Part shown: positions 41,240 to 46,929 of the stretch, piece after piece | How positions within the stretch are numbered: the stretch's first letter is position 1 | How the letters are laid out: each line of letters begins with the position of its first letter | Origin: a virus | Taxonomy: Duplodnaviria; Caudoviricetes | IMG/VR virus record: IMGVR_UViG_2883068021_000001 | Coordinates: 1-64,000 of that record | DNA: 64,000 nt | Reading direction: 5' to 3' (one strand) | Notes under the pieces: model-generated | The model's database searches: none | The model's input: the letters and a program-made list of their open reading frames with translations, nothing else | What the model was told of the DNA's origin: nothing | Made by a program: the position numbers and the translations under genes

Positions 41240-43531
41240 ATGATTAAAAGCATCAACAAAATCCATGGATTTCGCATATTTCAAGATTTCACAAGGTCTT
41301 CATCATTGTCAGACTTTTCAAAATATAATTTATTCTATGGTTGGAATGGAAGTGGGAAAAGCACATTTTCTAATCTGCTTCAGTATGTTGAAGAAAAATC
41401 TATTCCAGACGAACACCTGGATGCTAAATTTGAAATTGAATTAGCAGATAAGCAAAAGCTGACAAATGGGGCATCATTGTCAAGTAATTCATTGAAATTA
41501 AAAGTATTTAATAAATACTTCGTTGCAGAGAATATAAATTTTGAGGAACAAGGCGCCAAAAGCATTCTTTTGGTATCAAAAGAAAGGATTGAAGAAAAGG
41601 CAAAACTCAAAGAACTAAATAAAGAGAAAAAGAGTCTTGTTGACAGATTGCTGAATGCTGAAAATGGAGCCAGGGATAAAAGAAAAGTAAATGAGAAGTT
41701 CCTTTCAGATATTGCAAAAGGGATTAAAAATTCTTTTAAGGTCATTGACACAAAAGATACTTACTATTTTAACTATGATAGAAATAAACTATCAGCATTT
41801 ATCGATAGGCATAAACAACAAGTAAATGCAACTTCGATTCTTACTGATGCAGATCTAAGCAAAGTCATTATGGCAGTTAAGCCAGAGGTAAAAGAAATTA
41901 TTCCCCTGGAGTTTGAATTGCCTAATTCAAATAACTTAATTGAATTTGAAGCCAGGTTGAATCTAGTTTTACAAACCAATATTGTGTCTAATCAAATAGA
42001 GCAATTAGTTAATGACGAACTACTCAATAGATGGGTAGAAGAGGGCTTGAAATTGCATTCAAAAATAGGTAGTGAAGTTTGTGGATATTGTGGAAATGCA
42101 ATAGCAAAAGAGAGAATTAATGCACTAAATGCACATTTTAGTGCAGACTATATTTCATTAAAAACAAAAATAGAAGATGGCATTAAATTCATTGAAAGTA
42201 TAAAACAGGGATTTCACCTTTCAGTGCCACTGGAAGATCACTTATATGATGAATATAAGGAAGGATACAAAGATGCAGTTAATGAATTTAAGAGCGTCCT
42301 TATAGAAATTGATACTAAGTTGAAATATTGGTCTGACACCATGAATACTAAACTTGGAAATCCATTTGAAATACTATCTCTAGATACACAAAATACAACT
42401 TCTATTTTTACTGCATTTAGTAGTAGCGTAAATAAGGTGATCTCTGTCCTCGAATTATGCAATAGCAAAACTGATAATTATTCAAAAATACTTAAAGAAA
42501 GCCAAGAAAAGCTGGAGCTACACTATGTCAGCGAAGCACTTTCTAACAATGAATATTTTAGAAGCTTGATTGAAATCGAAGAGCTGGACAAAGAATCCAA
42601 TGAAGTGCGACAACAACTAAATGTGATAGCCAAGGAAATATTAGAATTAGAAAAGGTATTAGTCAATGCTGTTATGGGCGCTGAACAATTTAATGAGAAC
42701 CTATATAAGTTTCTGGGAAGAAATGATATTTTGTTAGAATATATTGCAGATGAAGGTGGATATAAAATTATCAGGTCAGGAAAAAAAGAATTGGCAAAGC
42801 ATTTGAGTGAGGGCGAAAGAACAGCCATTGCGTTTGTCTATTTCATATCAAAATTACAGGAGATGGAGATAGCTGATTTGCAGGAGTCAATTATTGTTTT
42901 GGATGATCCTATTTCAAGCTTTGATAGCAATCATCTGTTCAATGCAGCTCATTTCATTAAAGAAGAGTTCTTTTCAGAAAAAGACATGCCAAGTAAGATT
43001 GGACAGCTCTTTATTCTTACACATAATTTCAATTTTTTCTCCCTTATCAATGAATGGTTTGAGGCAAAGGATTTAAAAAAAGTGTTCTGCATAAAGAACA
43101 TTAATCATAATGGTAGTAGAGCTGCGATATTTGAAGATGCTGAATATGTTTTAAAGCAATTTGGTTCTGAGTATCACTTTATTTTTTCAGAAATTAAGAA
43201 ATACAATGAATCGAACGACAAATCTTATTATCATACGCACACTATAGCTAATTTATGCAGACAGCTCTTAGAATCTTTTCTAACTTTCAAGTTTGGTCGA
43301 AAGAAACTGGATAAATGCTTTGACGAAATAGTGGGATTCAGCGAACTTGCAAAAGTTAGAAAATTTGTAAATCATTATTCGCATAGAGCAGATCATGGAA
43401 CCAGCATAAGGGGATATAATGACAATCTTTTTGGCGAGACTGAAAAACTAGTTCCAATTGTACTAGAGTTGGTAAAATATGTGGATAATGTTCATTATAC
43501 CTCCATGTTGGCAAGAATAAATGGGAATTGA
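41240..43531 (+). CDS. rloC: RloC-family anticodon nuclease (ABC ATPase, zinc hook, HEPN)
   Basis: GWNGSGKS, CGYCG hook inside a coiled coil, LSEGE, LDDPISSFD, THN, and HEPN RQLLESF...RKFVNHYSH. Confidence 0.85.
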   Translation: MIKSINKIHGFRIFQDFTRSSSLSDFSKYNLFYGWNGSGKSTFSNLLQYVEEKSIPDEHLDAKFEIELADKQKLTNGASLSSNSLKLKVFNKYFVAENINFEEQGAKSILLVSKERIEEKAKLKELNKEKKSLVDRLLNAENGARDKRKVNEKFLSDIAKGIKNSFKVIDTKDTYYFNYDRNKLSAFIDRHKQQVNATSILTDADLSKVIMAVKPEVKEIIPLEFELPNSNNLIEFEARLNLVLQTNIVSNQIEQLVNDELLNRWVEEGLKLHSKIGSEVCGYCGNAIAKERINALNAHFSADYISLKTKIEDGIKFIESIKQGFHLSVPLEDHLYDEYKEGYKDAVNEFKSVLIEIDTKLKYWSDTMNTKLGNPFEILSLDTQNTTSIFTAFSSSVNKVISVLELCNSKTDNYSKILKESQEKLELHYVSEALSNNEYFRSLIEIEELDKESNEVRQQLNVIAKEILELEKVLVNAVMGAEQFNENLYKFLGRNDILLEYIADEGGYKIIRSGKKELAKHLSEGERTAIAFVYFISKLQEMEIADLQESIIVLDDPISSFDSNHLFNAAHFIKEEFFSEKDMPSKIGQLFILTHNFNFFSLINEWFEAKDLKKVFCIKNINHNGSRAAIFEDAEYVLKQFGSEYHFIFSEIKKYNESNDKSYYHTHTIANLCRQLLESFLTFKFGRKKLDKCFDEIVGFSELAKVRKFVNHYSHRADHGTSIRGYNDNLFGETEKLVPIVLELVKYVDNVHYTSMLARINGN

Positions 43532-43580
43532 TTTATTAATCGTGTAAGATAAGATAGCTACGATTTAATCTGACAGTTGG

Positions 43581-43754
43581 CTACTTCTTTAACTTAAAGC
43601 CAATAAATCCAACTATCCCTAAAATATACAACCACCAGGGAATTTTGAACAGGGAATAAATTAGTCCATTCCATAGGCCATCAATAATAAATGCTGCAAT
43701 ACAAGCAATTGCAAGAATGCCTATGCCCCAAAGACACCCTTTGATATTTTCCAT
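43581..43754 (-). CDS. 57-aa 2-TM membrane protein
   Basis: Translated by hand: MENIKGCLWGIGILAIACIAAFIIDGLWNGLIYSLFKIPWWLYILGIVGFIGFKLKK. Confidence 0.65.
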   Translation of the reverse strand: MENIKGCLWGIGILAIACIAAFIIDGLWNGLIYSLFKIPWWLYILGIVGFIGFKLKK

Positions 43755-43763
43755 AGGTAGATG

Positions 43764-44267
43764 TTATTTTAATTTTAATATAAGTACAACTATTGCCAAT
43801 GTGGAAATGATGACAATTGAGAATACTACCAAAGTACCCTGATTATTATTATTCTCGTTAGAAGATTTGAATATCTCATCATCAAAATTAATCTTGCTGG
43901 TATCAGAAGTATTATATATACCAGTTGGTGCTATAGGAGTGGTGGCTGGATTAGAACTTGCATGAGGGCCATTGCCTGGCTCCAGACTTTCAATAAGTTG
44001 ATCCAATTCAGTTTTTTCTTTCGAGGTAGAATAGTCTTGTATTGTTGGCCCTGTATTACTTCTCTCAATTGAGGCTTTAATTTTTTCTAAATCATCCTTG
44101 TTTTTCTCCAAGGTCATTGGGTCTAAAGCATCAACAGGTTGTTGAGAATAAGCTGATGAATTTAAACAAAGAAAAAGTAGACCAAATAGAGTGAAACTTT
44201 TCATAATATGTGGTTTTGAAGTAAAAATACCTGTTTTGCAGTAAATAACGCAAATTTGCTCTAACAA
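43764..44267 (-). CDS. Exported protein with C-terminal TM anchor
   Basis: The likely start MKSFTLFGLLFLCLNSSAYS-Q is a signal peptide; hydrophobic C-terminus. Confidence 0.65.
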   Translation of the reverse strand: MLEQICVIYCKTGIFTSKPHIMKSFTLFGLLFLCLNSSAYSQQPVDALDPMTLEKNKDDLEKIKASIERSNTGPTIQDYSTSKEKTELDQLIESLEPGNGPHASSNPATTPIAPTGIYNTSDTSKINFDDEIFKSSNENNNNQGTLVVFSIVIISTLAIVVLILKLK

Positions 44268-44296
44268 TTCTATATCACAAGGTTTCTCTTTGCCTT

Positions 44297-44536
44297 GTGG
44301 CTAATAACTACTATAGGGATGAGGATTTTATCAAAAAATTTGGGCTAAGGCTCAAAGAAATAAGGAAGTTCAAGAAGATGAGCCAGGAAGAACTTGCCTT
44401 TAAGTGTGGGTTTGAATTATCTCAAATAGGTAGGATTGAAAGGGGAACTATCAACACATCTATATCTCATGTAGCTGCAATTGCTAGAGCACTAGAAGTC
44501 GCTCCTTACAAGTTGTTTGAATTTGAGCCTGATTGA
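44297..44536 (+). CDS. XRE-family HTH regulator
   Basis: GLRLKEIRK...SQEELA...IGRIERG. Confidence 0.9.
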   Translation: MANNYYRDEDFIKKFGLRLKEIRKFKKMSQEELAFKCGFELSQIGRIERGTINTSISHVAAIARALEVAPYKLFEFEPD

Positions 44537-44541
44537 TTCAT

Positions 44542-45726
44542 CTATATTTTCTGTAAAATATCTGGAGGACACATTTCGTAACCTGCACTTTGCCAAATGA
44601 TATGGAACAATGATTCCATTGCCTTATAATAATCTTGTTTGAAATCTTGAATGACAACTATTGGGAACAATAGACTTTCCTTTTTGAAGCCTTTTTTATG
44701 ATTCCAAAGTCCAGAAATTGGCATCCCTTTTATGTTATTAAATGCTAAAGAAATACAATATGGGGATTCTATCGATGCTGTGATGTAGAACTCTATTGTC
44801 TGCTTTACTTGCTGCAAAACTTCAGCTGCTAAATTCTCTCCAGATAGAAAATACTTATTACTAGCATCCTGCATATATATTCCTGTTGTAAAAACCTCAA
44901 TGCAGCCATCTCTAAATATTGAATTATACGAATACATATCAGAATATGGGTTTGTATGGATAACAAAACCCTCAAAAGTATGATTATAGCTGTAGCCACT
45001 TGACATGATTGGAGGTAATTTTCTAATCATATTCTCATGAAATGAGCTAGGCAAAAAATCCAAAGAAGTATAGCCCATTTTTGACAAAGGAATAATATGA
45101 AGTATCATATTGGGAATATCAACAATAGCATCCCAAAAAGGGTTTGTCTGTATTGATTTTATCCTATCCTGAATAAACTGTTTGGCCCTATCTCTCATTT
45201 CCATGTTCTTTATGAATAAATTATACAACTCATGGGTATCCAACAAATACTTGCCAGTATTCCTTCTCCTGTAGAATTTACTTGAGTTCTTAAAACTTAT
45301 TCTGGTAGGTAACGATAAATTTTTAGGAATTGATATTGCAAAAACATTGCAGCCATTTACAGGTATTAAACTACTAAAAGACAAATGACTTAATTGGGGA
45401 TCTGTATTATTCTTAACAATTTCCTCAATTTGAGATATGACTTTATCATAATTGTCTATGGCCACTCTATTGCCACTAGGCAATTGGGGGATTCCTGTAC
45501 TTTGATTTAATTCATCTTTCTCATCCTCCAATCCAAATATTATAATACCACCTTCTGTATTATGAAATGCTGTTATATCAGCCAGCAATTCTGATCTATC
45601 ACCATCATCTTTGAGTTTAAAGTCCCTTTTATAATCCAGGGTTATTGATTCAGGAACTCTTCGTTCAATCAAGGACAAAATGTCCTCATTAGAGAGTTCT
45701 ACAACACTCTTTCCACTAAGTCGCAT
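44542..45726 (-). CDS. AlbA_2/Schlafen-domain protein
   Basis: VPESITLDYKRD...LLADITAFHNTEGGIIIFGLED...FYRRRNTGK. Confidence 0.85.
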   Translation of the reverse strand: MRLSGKSVVELSNEDILSLIERRVPESITLDYKRDFKLKDDGDRSELLADITAFHNTEGGIIIFGLEDEKDELNQSTGIPQLPSGNRVAIDNYDKVISQIEEIVKNNTDPQLSHLSFSSLIPVNGCNVFAISIPKNLSLPTRISFKNSSKFYRRRNTGKYLLDTHELYNLFIKNMEMRDRAKQFIQDRIKSIQTNPFWDAIVDIPNMILHIIPLSKMGYTSLDFLPSSFHENMIRKLPPIMSSGYSYNHTFEGFVIHTNPYSDMYSYNSIFRDGCIEVFTTGIYMQDASNKYFLSGENLAAEVLQQVKQTIEFYITASIESPYCISLAFNNIKGMPISGLWNHKKGFKKESLLFPIVVIQDFKQDYYKAMESLFHIIWQSAGYEMCPPDILQKI

Positions 45727-45737
45727 ACAACTTTTCC

Positions 45738-45908
45738 TTATTGGTTATTAGATGTACTATTATTATTGTTATCGCCAGATGAAGTTGTCGTAGCTTGACT
45801 ACTATTACTATTGTTTGTCGAAGCCTTGGGAGGTGGAGGAACCACTCTTCCCAACTTTTCTTGGACTAATTCTCTAGGCATCACCTTTGTTTCTTTCTCT
45901 TTGCTCAT
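45738..45908 (-). CDS. 56-aa low-complexity peptide with PPPP
   Basis: Translated by hand: MSKEKETKVMPRELVQEKLGRVVPPPPKASTNNSNSSQATTTSSGDNNNNSTSNNQ; gaps of 3 and 11 nt to its neighbours. Confidence 0.7.
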   Translation of the reverse strand: MSKEKETKVMPRELVQEKLGRVVPPPPKASTNNSNSSQATTTSSGDNNNNSTSNNQ

Positions 45909-45911
45909 ACA

Positions 45912-46301
45912 TTATATATTTATTGATGAAAAAATTAAAATTGAAAGAATCCCTAAAATCAATGTAATGATTGTACCTACATTTATTAAAGTAATCCATC
46001 TTGTCCTCTTCGCATGTTTCGTCTCGGAGCCACATTGATATTCAATAAGAGTTTTGTAATTATATTGGGCAGAAAGGAAATGAGAAAAAAGATTGGAAAA
46101 AAGAGTTATGGCTAAAAGAATCCAACCAGATTTAAGTAACCACTTATTGCAGGCAGTGCTAAGTGGGACTATTTTCTCTATAAAAAGCATGGATAATCCC
46201 AATGCACCAGCACTGATAAAACTTAACTGTTTCTCAAAATCATCCTGGCTTTTAGTCAGTGTATCTGATAAACTTTTTTGATAATCCTTATCTAAATCCA
46301 T
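45912..46301 (-). CDS. 3-TM membrane protein
   Basis: FEKQLSFISAGALGLSMLFIEKIV plus two further hydrophobic helices. Confidence 0.75.
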   Translation of the reverse strand: MDLDKDYQKSLSDTLTKSQDDFEKQLSFISAGALGLSMLFIEKIVPLSTACNKWLLKSGWILLAITLFSNLFSHFLSAQYNYKTLIEYQCGSETKHAKRTRWITLINVGTIITLILGILSILIFSSINI

Positions 46302-46515
46302 AGGTTGATATTACATTATATCAAATATACTAAATTATTTAGTAAATAAACCTTACATGATTTTCCACAATTATGTTTGAGTAAATGTTTATCTGCACTA
46401 TGTTTGAATAAATACCTATCTAGTCCAATCTCCCTATTTTTAGCTAAATTTTTCCAGCCCCAAATTTTTCGATGTTTAATTAATATATAGCATAATTGAA
46501 ATTCCTTCCTGCCCT

Positions 46516-46592
46516 CCCCCTCATATAAATGTAAGTAGCGACCACCCCATTTAATACACCCCCTCTTAATATCAGGTTCAGGGTATACCCCA
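46516..46592. repeat. Two tandem bipartite boxes CCCCCTC-N21-ACCCCA
   Basis: Units at 46516-46549 and 46559-46592; the second overlaps the palindrome GGGTATACCC (46581-46590). Confidence 0.7.
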
Positions 46593-46635
46593 CCTTTTTT
46601 ATCAACTAGTTATATAATTCCTAATCCTTACAACT

Positions 46636-46929
46636 ATGGTTACTATTAAGAATTTTAAAGTGCATGCTGATGCACAGGGGAAATCATTTGTCTCCCTGGA
46701 GCTGATAGGTGATATTGAAATGATCCAATCCAAACAATCAGGGAGATTTTACGCTACAGTCAGGAAATGCTTTATTTCTTCAACTTTTGATGAAACCACA
46801 GCCAGGCTGATGGTTGGAAAATCCATCGAAGGAAACATTGTAAAACAGGAATGTGAACCCTACGACTTTATTATGCACGAAACTGGGGAAGCAGTAAAGC
46901 TGACCCATCAATATGCATATGTACCTTAA
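46636..46929 (+). CDS. Conserved Bacteroidota element protein
   Basis: 97 aa, FVSLEL.GDIEMIQS..GRFYAT..K..ISSTFDE; first gene of the rightward cluster. Confidence 0.7.
   Translation: MVTIKNFKVHADAQGKSFVSLELIGDIEMIQSKQSGRFYATVRKCFISSTFDETTARLMVGKSIEGNIVKQECEPYDFIMHETGEAVKLTHQYAYVP

What the first reader, a model, noticed from the sequence alone, without database searches (positions are those of the whole stretch)
44542..46301. Three-gene operon: 3-TM protein, unannotated PPPP low-complexity peptide, Schlafen/AlbA_2 protein
Seen: three co-directional genes with gaps of only 3 and 11 nt. The middle 56-aa ORF is missed by the ORF track and has a charged N-terminus, VVPPPPK and a Ser/Asn/Thr tail. 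Established: Schlafen-type AlbA_2 domains are RNase folds, and polyproline stalls ribosomes unless EF-P acts. Inference: a candidate multi-component anti-phage system with a membrane sensor, a peptide signal or translation-coupled switch, and an RNase effector.
Basis: partly seen in the sequence, partly recalled or inferred. Interest (0 to 1): 0.7.

Follow-up and report, generated by a model that had tools for sequence, protein, structure and literature searches.

The report
Schlafen defence gene plus membrane-peptide cassette
The three genes are real, but they look like two units joined in one operon: a bacterial Schlafen-type RNase defence gene of a kind shown in 2026 to stop phages, and upstream of it an undescribed, widespread pair (a small three-helix membrane protein and a tiny peptide that is its detachable tail) that sits inside restriction and other defence operons in many bacteria.

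Summary
Observation confirmed. Three minus-strand genes lie 3 and 11 nt apart in a 33% GC operon on an integrative island: a 129-aa protein with three membrane helices, a 56-aa peptide and a 394-aa AlbA_2 protein.

The 394-aa protein is a prokaryotic Schlafen (pSlfn). It has the Pfam domain, the catalytic Ex4DxK motif, the Schlafen/SAMD9 fold, and a C-terminal TBP/AdoMetDC-like accessory domain.

The peptide is a real, conserved gene. It lies in frame with the membrane gene, separated only by TAA-TGT. In 82 of 145 family representatives it is fused on as a C-terminal tail, with a conserved Met at the same position. A profile built from those tails finds the window ORF at E 7e-6. The conserved motif is (E/Q)KG(R)T(I)PxP, not polyproline.

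In 24 of 27 loci the membrane gene has such a peptide or tail. Some have two or three peptide genes in tandem. Eleven loci sit in or beside type I or III R-M, DpnII-like, AbiC, SMODS, DUF4917 or AAA_21 genes.

In 400 sampled genomes of the phylum, no genome other than the window's own carries both families.

Verdict: the operon most likely combines an autonomous pSlfn with an independent, uncharacterised membrane-peptide cassette, probably membrane-acting defence. An integrated three-part system remains possible. The EF-P/polyproline switch is not supported.

The parts
46322..46329 (-). Bacteroidota-type -7 promoter motif TAnnTTTG (TATATTTG), 21 nt upstream of the first ATG
   Evidence: It is the only such motif upstream of or between the three genes. 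One more lies inside the AlbA_2 gene at 44973-44980. The window as a whole has 0.7 such motifs per kb.
45912..46301 (-). 129-aa membrane protein with three long helices. Nearly invariant polar residues: E23, N70, S73, H74, N107, N128. Member of a large unannotated family.
   Evidence: 4425 clusters at E<=1e-3; AF2 pLDDT 86. No hit in Pfam, NCBIfam or PADLOC; one marginal PHROGs match, phrog_34759, E 0.092; weak or scattered hits for relatives.
45909..45914 (-). Junction TAA-TGT: a single in-frame stop plus one codon between the membrane ORF and the peptide ORF
   Evidence: Fused relatives read N-x-x-x-M here (for example N-I-L-T-M in P0058). The window reads N-I-stop-C-M, with the Met at the same position.
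45738..45908 (-). 56-aa hydrophilic peptide gene with no signal peptide and no hydrophobic segment. It is homologous to the C-terminal tails of fused family members.
   Evidence: tail profile E 7.4e-6, top of 745 ORFs.
45825..45860 (-). Conserved peptide core EKLGRVVPPPPK, the window's version of the family motif (E/Q)KG(R)T(I)PxP
44542..45726 (-). 394-aa prokaryotic Schlafen (pSlfn): an N-terminal AlbA_2 nuclease domain and a C-terminal accessory domain
45628..45651 (-). Catalytic motif ESITLDYK = Ex4DxK (E26, D31, K33)
   Evidence: E26 and K33 are invariant in 23 homologues, and position 31 is D or E. The motif is defined in PMC13056530.
44545..45141 (-). C-terminal domain (residues 196-394), an alpha/beta sandwich resembling the AdoMetDC/TBP-like fold. 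Putative sensor.
   Evidence: Z 7.9 to AdoMetDC, borderline; Atlas lead: the same domain occurs alone or fused to AlbA_2 or DUF4062, TM 0.71-0.83.
44297..44536 (+). 79-aa XRE/C-protein-like HTH gene. It is convergent with the operon, and its stop lies 5 nt from the Schlafen gene's stop. Context only; a link is not shown.
   Evidence: HTH_3 E 1e-11; PADLOC Control_protein E 9e-15.
41240..43531 (+). 763-aa AAA_13 / RloC-PrrC-like ATPase (PADLOC PDC-S06). Neighbouring defence gene in the same island.
   Evidence: AAA_13 E 5e-132; PDC-S06 E 2e-155.

Best explanation
The operon joins two units. Unit 1 is the 394-aa gene, a prokaryotic Schlafen nuclease. It most likely acts alone as a phage-triggered tRNase: its C-terminal TBP/AdoMetDC-like domain would sense a phage cue and release the Ex4DxK nuclease, which cuts tRNA and stops translation. 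This mechanism is inferred from characterised pSlfn proteins. Unit 2 is the 129-aa and 56-aa pair, a portable and so far undescribed cassette. It consists of a three-helix membrane protein with conserved polar residues inside the membrane helices, plus a basic, Pro/Ser/Thr/Asn-rich peptide carrying the motif KG(R)T(I)PxP. The peptide is the same element that forms a C-terminal tail in over half of family representatives, so the two proteins almost certainly work as one physical unit. The cassette sits at the end of, or inside, defence operons of many kinds. My best guess at its function, which is inferred and not shown, is a membrane-acting abortive-infection or exclusion module. In this reading the helical protein oligomerises into a pore or channel and the tail or peptide regulates it, much as the charged C-terminal tail times a class I holin. 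In this window the cassette is co-transcribed with the Schlafen gene but probably does not need it.
For: Unit 1: Pfam AlbA_2 match. E26-x4-D31-x-K33, with E26 and K33 invariant in 23 homologues, matches the catalytic motif of PMC13056530. The best PDB sequence hit is CbCash, a CRISPR-associated Schlafen tRNase, at E 1.4e-9. The AF2 model (pLDDT 86) aligns to SAMD9, DIP2311 and SLFN folds at Z 8.2-10.7. The C-terminal domain recurs elsewhere, alone or on other N-terminal domains (lead only). Full-length relatives at 32-35% identity have no membrane gene upstream. Unit 2: 4425 clusters at 50% identity. 82 of 145 representatives carry a tail of at least 25 aa, and 62 of these 82 have a Met in the first 12 tail residues, 40 at exactly the window's position, against a background Met frequency of 0.4%. 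The tail profile hits the window ORF at E 7e-6, and its top 9 hits among 2234 ORFs of other loci are all ORFs flanking the membrane gene. 24 of 27 loci have a peptide or tail, in varying frames and with gaps from -14 to +12 nt. Neighbours include type I R-M (L041, L045, L070), type III R-M (L052, L047), a DpnII-like REase (L042), DUF4917 (L043, L045), putAbiC (L040), SMODS (L071) and AAA_21 (L079). Independence of the two units: in 400 genomes of the phylum, 7 carry the full-length Schlafen family, 10 carry the membrane family, and none carries both apart from the window's genome.
Against: By matching contig lengths, three metagenome contigs (14296, 12278 and 12240 bp) appear to carry both a close Schlafen relative (50-77% identity) and a close membrane relative (78-84%). 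So the linkage is kept within this clade and could be functional. The pore and regulatory-tail function has no direct support. There was no significant structural match, and PADLOC gave only scattered weak hits (PycTM E 0.02, RTasSLATT E 0.03, one member each). Topology is unresolved. The positive-inside rule puts the C-terminus, and hence fused tails, outside the cell (K+R 8.6 against 1.2), whereas free peptides have no signal peptide and should stay inside. AF2 leaves the tail undocked (pLDDT 65-73). 16 of the 27 loci show no recognised defence neighbour.
Confidence: 0.55

Rival explanations
1. One integrated three-component system, as the first reader proposed in outline. The membrane-peptide pair would be a portable sensor or regulator that plugs into different nuclease effectors (Schlafen here; HsdR, Res, a DpnII-like REase or DUF4917 elsewhere). 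It would control them in response to an event at the membrane such as phage DNA entry.
For: The genes are 3 and 11 nt apart with one promoter motif upstream. The cassette is nearly always co-directional with, and within tens of nt of, a nuclease or defence gene. Both families appear to share a contig in three related metagenome contigs.
Against: The two families do not co-occur in any of 400 sampled genomes besides the window's own. Chitinophaga niabensis has a 65%-identical Schlafen, but no membrane homologue from its 4.2-Mb contig appears among the hits. Type I and type III R-M systems and characterised pSlfn proteins are complete without such a partner (PMC13056530). The partners share no common domain that could receive a signal.
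Confidence: 0.2
2. The cassette is not a defence element. It could be another kind of mobile-element cargo, such as a leaderless cationic peptide (bacteriocin-like or signalling) with its membrane immunity or export protein, or an envelope or maintenance function that merely travels with islands.
For: Tandem arrays of two or three small cationic peptide genes next to a small membrane protein (L067, L068, L072, L074, L080, L081) resemble bacteriocin-immunity or peptide-precursor loci. 16 of 27 loci show no recognised defence neighbour. The positive-inside rule places fused tails outside the cell.
Against: Peptide and membrane protein are fused in more than half of representatives, which is hard to reconcile with a toxin and its immunity protein. 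No transporter, protease or modification enzyme is conserved nearby. The cassette is inserted inside hsdMS-hsdR operons and directly after type III res.
Confidence: 0.15
3. The peptide ORF is a translational control element. In this reading the polyproline stalls ribosomes unless EF-P acts, or stop-codon read-through or force on the nascent chain sets the expression of the downstream effector, as SecM and MifM do.
For: The window peptide has PPPP. The ORF lies 11 nt upstream of the effector and in frame with a membrane protein. In fused forms the motif lies about 23 residues after the last membrane helix.
Against: PPP occurs in only 14 of 82 tails and PP in 33 of 82. The conserved residues are G-R-T-I-P-x-P and an N-terminal Met, and conservation runs along the whole peptide. 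Peptides lie upstream of the membrane gene in L047, L051 and L081, occur in tandem copies, and are often followed by no gene on the same strand (L043, L052, L068). Split forms use all three frames, so read-through is not general.
Confidence: 0.05

Closest known systems
Prokaryotic Schlafen defence proteins (pSlfn1-55; RorSlfn5 and EcoSlfn7; Perez Taboada et al., Nat Microbiol 2026, PMC13056530)
   Same: An N-terminal AlbA_2/Schlafen nuclease with an Ex4(E/D)xK motif is fused to a variable C-terminal accessory domain. The gene lies in a defence island on a mobile element. The paper lists TBP-like fusions (1.5%) and unannotated fusions (17%) among its architectures.
   Different: The C-terminal domain here is neither the Ig-like sensor of RorSlfn5 nor DUF262. 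No activity, trigger or target is known. It is co-transcribed with a membrane-peptide pair, and a term search of the paper's main text found no occurrence of 'membrane', 'transmembrane' or 'operon'. I could not check the paper's supplementary tables because they are not held.
CbCash, a CRISPR-associated Schlafen (PDB 9ylu; PMC13462974)
   Same: It is the best sequence match among solved structures (E 1.4e-9 over residues 25-168). It is a Schlafen tRNase used in bacterial immunity.
   Different: Cash is fused to a Csx15 cA4 sensor and depends on type III CRISPR. No such domain or CRISPR locus is present here.
PrrC / RloC anticodon nucleases embedded in type I R-M operons
   Same: This is an analogy of position only. 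In L041, L045 and L070 the membrane-peptide cassette occupies the same kind of slot, inside or at the end of an hsd operon. An RloC-like AAA_13 gene lies 1 kb from this operon in the window.
   Different: There is no sequence or domain relation. The cassette encodes no nuclease or ATPase.
Small membrane effectors of abortive infection and lysis (class I holins, PycTM, SLATT, Cap15-type)
   Same: These are small proteins with two to four membrane helices and conserved polar residues in the membrane. Holins have a charged hydrophilic C-terminal tail. They are found in defence operons. The Atlas's nearest named cluster is PycTM, at a score of 0.80 (lead only).
   Different: There is no significant profile match. 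No cyclase or endolysin partner is conserved. The conserved KG(R)T(I)PxP peptide, its separate cistron and its tandem copies have no counterpart in those families.
Proline-rich arrest or EF-P-dependent leader peptides (SecM, MifM, polyproline)
   Same: A short ORF with PPPP lies upstream of a regulated-looking gene, and in some relatives it is attached to a membrane protein.
   Different: Consecutive prolines are not conserved. The position and copy number of the peptide gene vary. See the fourth rival explanation (translational control).

Membership tests
Prokaryotic Schlafen (pSlfn) nucleases | SLFN_AlbA_2 domain (PF04326) above Pfam's threshold | tested here: met
   E 6.1e-13, 49.8 bits against a cut-off of 25.3, residues 26-161.
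Prokaryotic Schlafen (pSlfn) nucleases | Catalytic Ex4(E/D)xK motif (PMC13056530) | tested here: met
   ESITLDYK at residues 26-33. E26 and K33 are invariant and position 31 is D or E in 23 homologues.
Prokaryotic Schlafen (pSlfn) nucleases | Schlafen / AlbA_2 three-dimensional fold | tested here: met
   AF2 model pLDDT 86. VIA-align gives Z 10.7 to SAMD9, 10.4 to DIP2311 (3lmm) and 8.2-8.9 to SLFN5, 11 and 12. Foldseek gives probability 1.00 to SLFN13.
Prokaryotic Schlafen (pSlfn) nucleases | Fusion to an accessory (sensor) domain | tested here: met
   Residues 196-394 form a separate alpha/beta domain conserved across the family. Its assignment to the TBP/AdoMetDC-like fold is only borderline (Z 7.9).
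Prokaryotic Schlafen (pSlfn) nucleases | Phage-triggered tRNA cleavage and protection from phage | not testable with these tools
   This needs expression, phage challenge and RNA-end mapping.
Known defence-system proteins in PADLOC 2.0 (membrane protein and peptide) | Significant match to any model | tested here: not met
   no hit for either window protein; across 23 family members there were only single weak hits (gop 0.005, PD-T4-6 0.017, PycTM 0.022, RTasSLATT 0.033).
PycTM / SLATT-type membrane effectors | Profile match plus a cyclase or SMODS partner | tested here: inconclusive
   Weak single-member hits only. The Atlas feature score is 0.80. One locus of 27 (L071) lies in a SMODS operon. 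Structure search found nothing significant.
Class I holins | Three membrane helices, N-out/C-in topology, charged C-terminal tail, adjacent endolysin | tested here: inconclusive
   Three helices and a charged tail are present. The positive-inside rule favours N-in/C-out. No endolysin was seen among the neighbouring proteins that were scanned against Pfam.
Polyproline / EF-P-dependent regulatory leader peptides | Conserved run of consecutive prolines placed upstream of the regulated gene | tested here: not met
   PPP occurs in 14 of 82 tails and PP in 33 of 82. Peptides lie upstream of, downstream of, or fused to the membrane gene, or in tandem.

The most novel reading that the evidence does not exclude
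The membrane protein and the KG(R)T(I)PxP peptide form a new, widespread defence or guard cassette (about 4400 clusters at 50% identity) that annotation has missed because one gene is tiny. Its leaderless basic Pro-rich peptides are sometimes encoded in tandem arrays and sometimes fused as a tail. In this reading they are the active or regulatory principle, for example gating an oligomeric pore when a neighbouring restriction or Schlafen system is attacked, or acting on an intracellular target as proline-rich antimicrobial peptides act on the ribosome.
Probability: 0.25. Interest if true: 0.85.

Novelty: new variant of a known kind. Interest (0 to 1): 0.6.

Why it matters
Bacterial Schlafens were shown to be phage-defence tRNases only in 2025-2026. 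This one adds a Bacteroidota example with an untested C-terminal sensor-type domain.

The more useful result concerns the upstream pair. It belongs to a large family with no Pfam, NCBIfam or PADLOC model, and it almost always comes with a short conserved peptide gene that gene callers skip. The window's own 56-aa ORF is not in the 15-billion-protein collection. The pair recurs inside restriction-modification and other defence operons.

If the pair is a defence or guard module, it would be a new class with a micro-protein component. It would also mean that many annotated R-M operons carry an overlooked extra function. The frequent switching between a fused tail and a separate cistron is a clean natural experiment for asking how a micro-protein works with its membrane partner.

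Tried and rejected
I therefore could not read the DNA of the closest metagenome relatives (P0002, P0003, P0005, P0055-P0058). Their shared contigs are inferred only from equal contig lengths.
- The search for related loci in genome contigs found nothing on two tries. An alignment of all homologues was too diverse to use. The metagenome scan returned only two distant loci, which were not used.
- The search for homologues of the 56-aa peptide as a separate protein found no candidate, not even the window's own ORF. The word-based index cannot handle this short low-complexity query, and the ORF is evidently not called as a gene.
- tblastn of the membrane protein against plasmid and phage collections gave no match. 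The viral-contig scan gave one locus, L052.
- Rfam found nothing in 43500-46800. The sigma-70 promoter and terminator scan was no better than shuffled sequence.
- Foldseek on the membrane-protein model gave nothing at E<=0.001.
- Literature searches for a described membrane plus proline-rich-peptide defence module, or for DUF4917 in defence, found nothing relevant.
- Programmed read-through of the TAA was considered and set aside. Split loci use all three frames with gaps from -14 to +12 nt, so an in-frame junction is what one in three would show by chance.
- Genome G848 is flagged as unpublished.
Full report
**1. What is in the sequence**

On the minus strand lie three ORFs: 46301..45912 (129 aa), 45908..45738 (56 aa) and 45726..44542 (394 aa). 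The junctions are TAA-TGT-ATG and TAA-GGAAAAGTTGT-ATG. The 56-aa ORF is therefore in the same reading frame as the 129-aa ORF, one stop and one codon away. A Bacteroidota -7 promoter motif (TATATTTG) lies 21 nt upstream of the first ATG. No other such motif lies between the genes, and no Rfam family matches. The operon is 33% GC in a 47% GC window. It lies in an integrative island noted by other readers, 1 kb from an RloC-like AAA_13 / PDC-S06 gene. It converges on a C-protein-like HTH gene.

**2. The 394-aa protein is a prokaryotic Schlafen**

- It matches PF04326 at E 6e-13.
- About 50 full-length homologues of 386-408 aa share the whole architecture.
- Residues 26-33, ESITLDYK, are the Ex4(E/D)xK catalytic motif defined for SLFN11 and bacterial Schlafens (PMC13056530). 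E26 and K33 are invariant.
- The best solved relative by sequence is CbCash, a CRISPR-associated Schlafen tRNase (E 1.4e-9).
- The AF2 model (pLDDT 86) superposes on SAMD9, DIP2311 and SLFN5/11/12 at Z 8.2-10.7.
- Residues 196-360 form an alpha/beta sandwich closest to AdoMetDC (Z 7.9) and, more weakly, to TBP and Bet v1-like folds. This is borderline. It is compatible with the 'TBP-like' class that the paper lists among pSlfn fusions, but I could not check the paper's tables.
- As an Atlas lead only, the same domain occurs alone and on other N-terminal domains, including DUF4062.
- The two pSlfn proteins that conferred defence in that study were each tested as a single protein carrying its own fused domain, and the authors propose that the fused domains act as sensors.

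**3. The 56-aa ORF is a real, conserved gene and is the detachable tail of the membrane protein**

Homologues of the 129-aa protein fall into two length classes. The longer ones (170-190 aa) continue past the last membrane helix into a tail that aligns with the window peptide (M-[SA]-K ... E-K-L-G-R-[TIV]-x-P).

An exhaustive HMMER search finds 4425 clusters at 50% identity with E<=1e-3, and 1326 at E<=1e-10. Among the best 150:
- 82 of 145 have a tail of at least 25 aa after the conserved Asn, and 49 of 145 stop within 5 residues of it.
- 62 of the 82 tails have a Met within the first 12 residues, 40 of them at exactly the fourth residue after that Asn. The Met frequency in the rest of the tails is 0.4%.
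- The window reads N-I-stop-C-M, with the Met at that same position.
- The tails contain K 13%, P 12% and S+T+N 30%, and have no hydrophobic segment.
- The recurrent motif is (E/Q)KG(R)T(I)PxP, about 23 residues after the Asn. PPP occurs in only 14 of 82.

A profile built from 61 tails, leaving out the closest relative, ranks the window ORF first of 745 ORFs at E 7.4e-6; the next best is 0.61. In 205 kb of other loci its nine best hits out of 2234 ORFs are all ORFs that flank the membrane gene.

**4. The pair is a portable cassette**

I collected 27 loci with a confident membrane-family gene: the window, 12 from a phylum sample, one viral contig, 8 from a class sample and 5 from an order sample.
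- 24 loci have an adjacent Pro-rich basic peptide gene or a fused tail.
- The peptide is usually downstream, with gaps from -14 to +12 nt and in any frame.
- It lies upstream in L047, L051 and L081.
- It is fused in L048, and L079 has a fused tail plus a free peptide gene.
- Two or three peptide genes lie in tandem in L067, L068, L072, L074, L080 and L081.
- Fusion, a conserved internal start and tight coupling all argue that the two products act together.

**5. Context**

Neighbours within about 3.5 kb:
- type I R-M with the cassette between hsdS and hsdR (L041, L045) or after hsdR (L070);
- type III mod-res followed by the cassette (L052), and a type III res-like gene (L047);
- a DpnII/MboI-like REase directly downstream (L042);
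- DUF4917 directly upstream (L043, L045);
- putAbiC (L040);
- a SMODS operon (L071);
- an AAA_21 ATPase (L079).

Counting the window, that is 11 of 27 loci. The family has no Pfam, NCBIfam or PADLOC model; the only PHROGs match is marginal (phrog_34759, E 0.092).

**6. Are the three genes one system?**

For:
- The operon is tightly packed.
- By equal contig lengths, both families appear to co-occur on three related metagenome contigs. One of these has the fused 182-aa form and one the split 129-aa form, beside Schlafen proteins of the same 90% cluster.

Against:
- In the same 400-genome phylum sample, 7 genomes carry the full-length Schlafen family, 10 carry the membrane family, and none carries both besides the window's own.
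- Schlafen relatives at 32-35% identity have unrelated upstream genes.
- The 65%-identical C. niabensis protein has no membrane-family partner among the hits.
- The cassette's other partners are complete systems in their own right.

I therefore read the operon as two units sharing a transcript. I keep the integrated-system reading at about 0.2.

**7. Mechanism of the cassette (inferred)**

AF2 (pLDDT 86) gives three helices of 37-41 residues and a disordered tail. The N-terminal half of helix 1 and the helix 2-3 connection form a soluble bundle on one side of the membrane; loop 1 and the tail lie on the other side. E23, N70, S73, H74, N107 and N128 are conserved in 133-146 of the 150 aligned sequences (89-97%). 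Polar residues inside the membrane helices suggest oligomerisation into a pore or channel.

Architecture and context fit a membrane-acting abortive-infection or exclusion module with a regulatory tail. No test here shows this.

One conflict is unresolved. The positive-inside rule (K+R 8.6 against 1.2) puts the C-terminus outside the cell, while free peptides have no export signal.

**8. The polyproline idea**

PPPP is a local feature of this clade. The family conserves G-R-T-I-P-x-P and the initiator Met instead. Peptide genes vary in position and number. An EF-P or arrest-peptide switch is unlikely as the general mechanism.

**9. Limits**

- Genome samples are samples, and relatives are not independent of one another.
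- Defence association is counted on 27 loci without a formal control.
- Atlas results and Z values below 8 are leads only.
- Nothing rests on the unpublished genome G848.

Noticed in passing
window 41240-43531 (+): A 763-aa AAA_13 protein matches PADLOC PDC-S06 over its full length (E 2e-155). It is an RloC/PrrC-like ATPase in the same island, with no hsd genes nearby.
   Followed up: partly
window 44297-44536 (+): A 79-aa XRE HTH resembles R-M controller (C) proteins (PADLOC Control_protein E 9e-15). It converges on the Schlafen gene, and the two stops are 5 nt apart. No obvious target gene lies downstream of it.
   Followed up: no
window 43581-44267 (-): Two small ORFs lie here: a 57-aa protein with two hydrophobic helices, and a 167-aa protein with a signal-like N-terminus, an Asn-rich low-complexity middle and a C-terminal membrane anchor. 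They sit between the RloC-like gene and the HTH gene. Neither has a Pfam family above threshold.
   Followed up: no
L043 4128-5742 and L045 2879-4507: DUF4917 (361 aa), the membrane protein and the peptide form a conserved trio. It occurs once beside an integrase and a N6_N4 methylase, and once inserted between hsdS and hsdR of a type I R-M operon. This may be a three-gene unit of its own.
   Followed up: partly
L070 2127-4996: An HsdR-like protein (804 aa) ends in ...FFIPPPKPIPPTGNIK and overlaps the start of the membrane gene by 4 nt. No separate peptide gene is present. The Pro-rich motif may here be fused to the upstream restriction subunit.
   Followed up: no
L071 4117-7088: A SMODS nucleotidyltransferase operon (329 aa, 147 aa, and a 261-aa protein with no Pfam match that was not examined further) ends with the membrane-peptide cassette.
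   Followed up: partly
L083 4888-5136: The peptide next to the membrane gene is 82 aa long and carries histone H1-like AKKxAPKK repeats before the motif region (GRRGALNAKGPTPEVSPRPAKP).
   Followed up: no
L079 4305-5137: This locus has both a fused tail (…IEKGRTITIP…) and an additional free 36-aa peptide gene (…LTEGRTIVAPKP…) immediately downstream.
   Followed up: partly
window 44542-46301: The operon is 33% GC, the surrounding island 36% and the whole window 47%. This is consistent with recent acquisition from a low-GC donor.
   Followed up: partly
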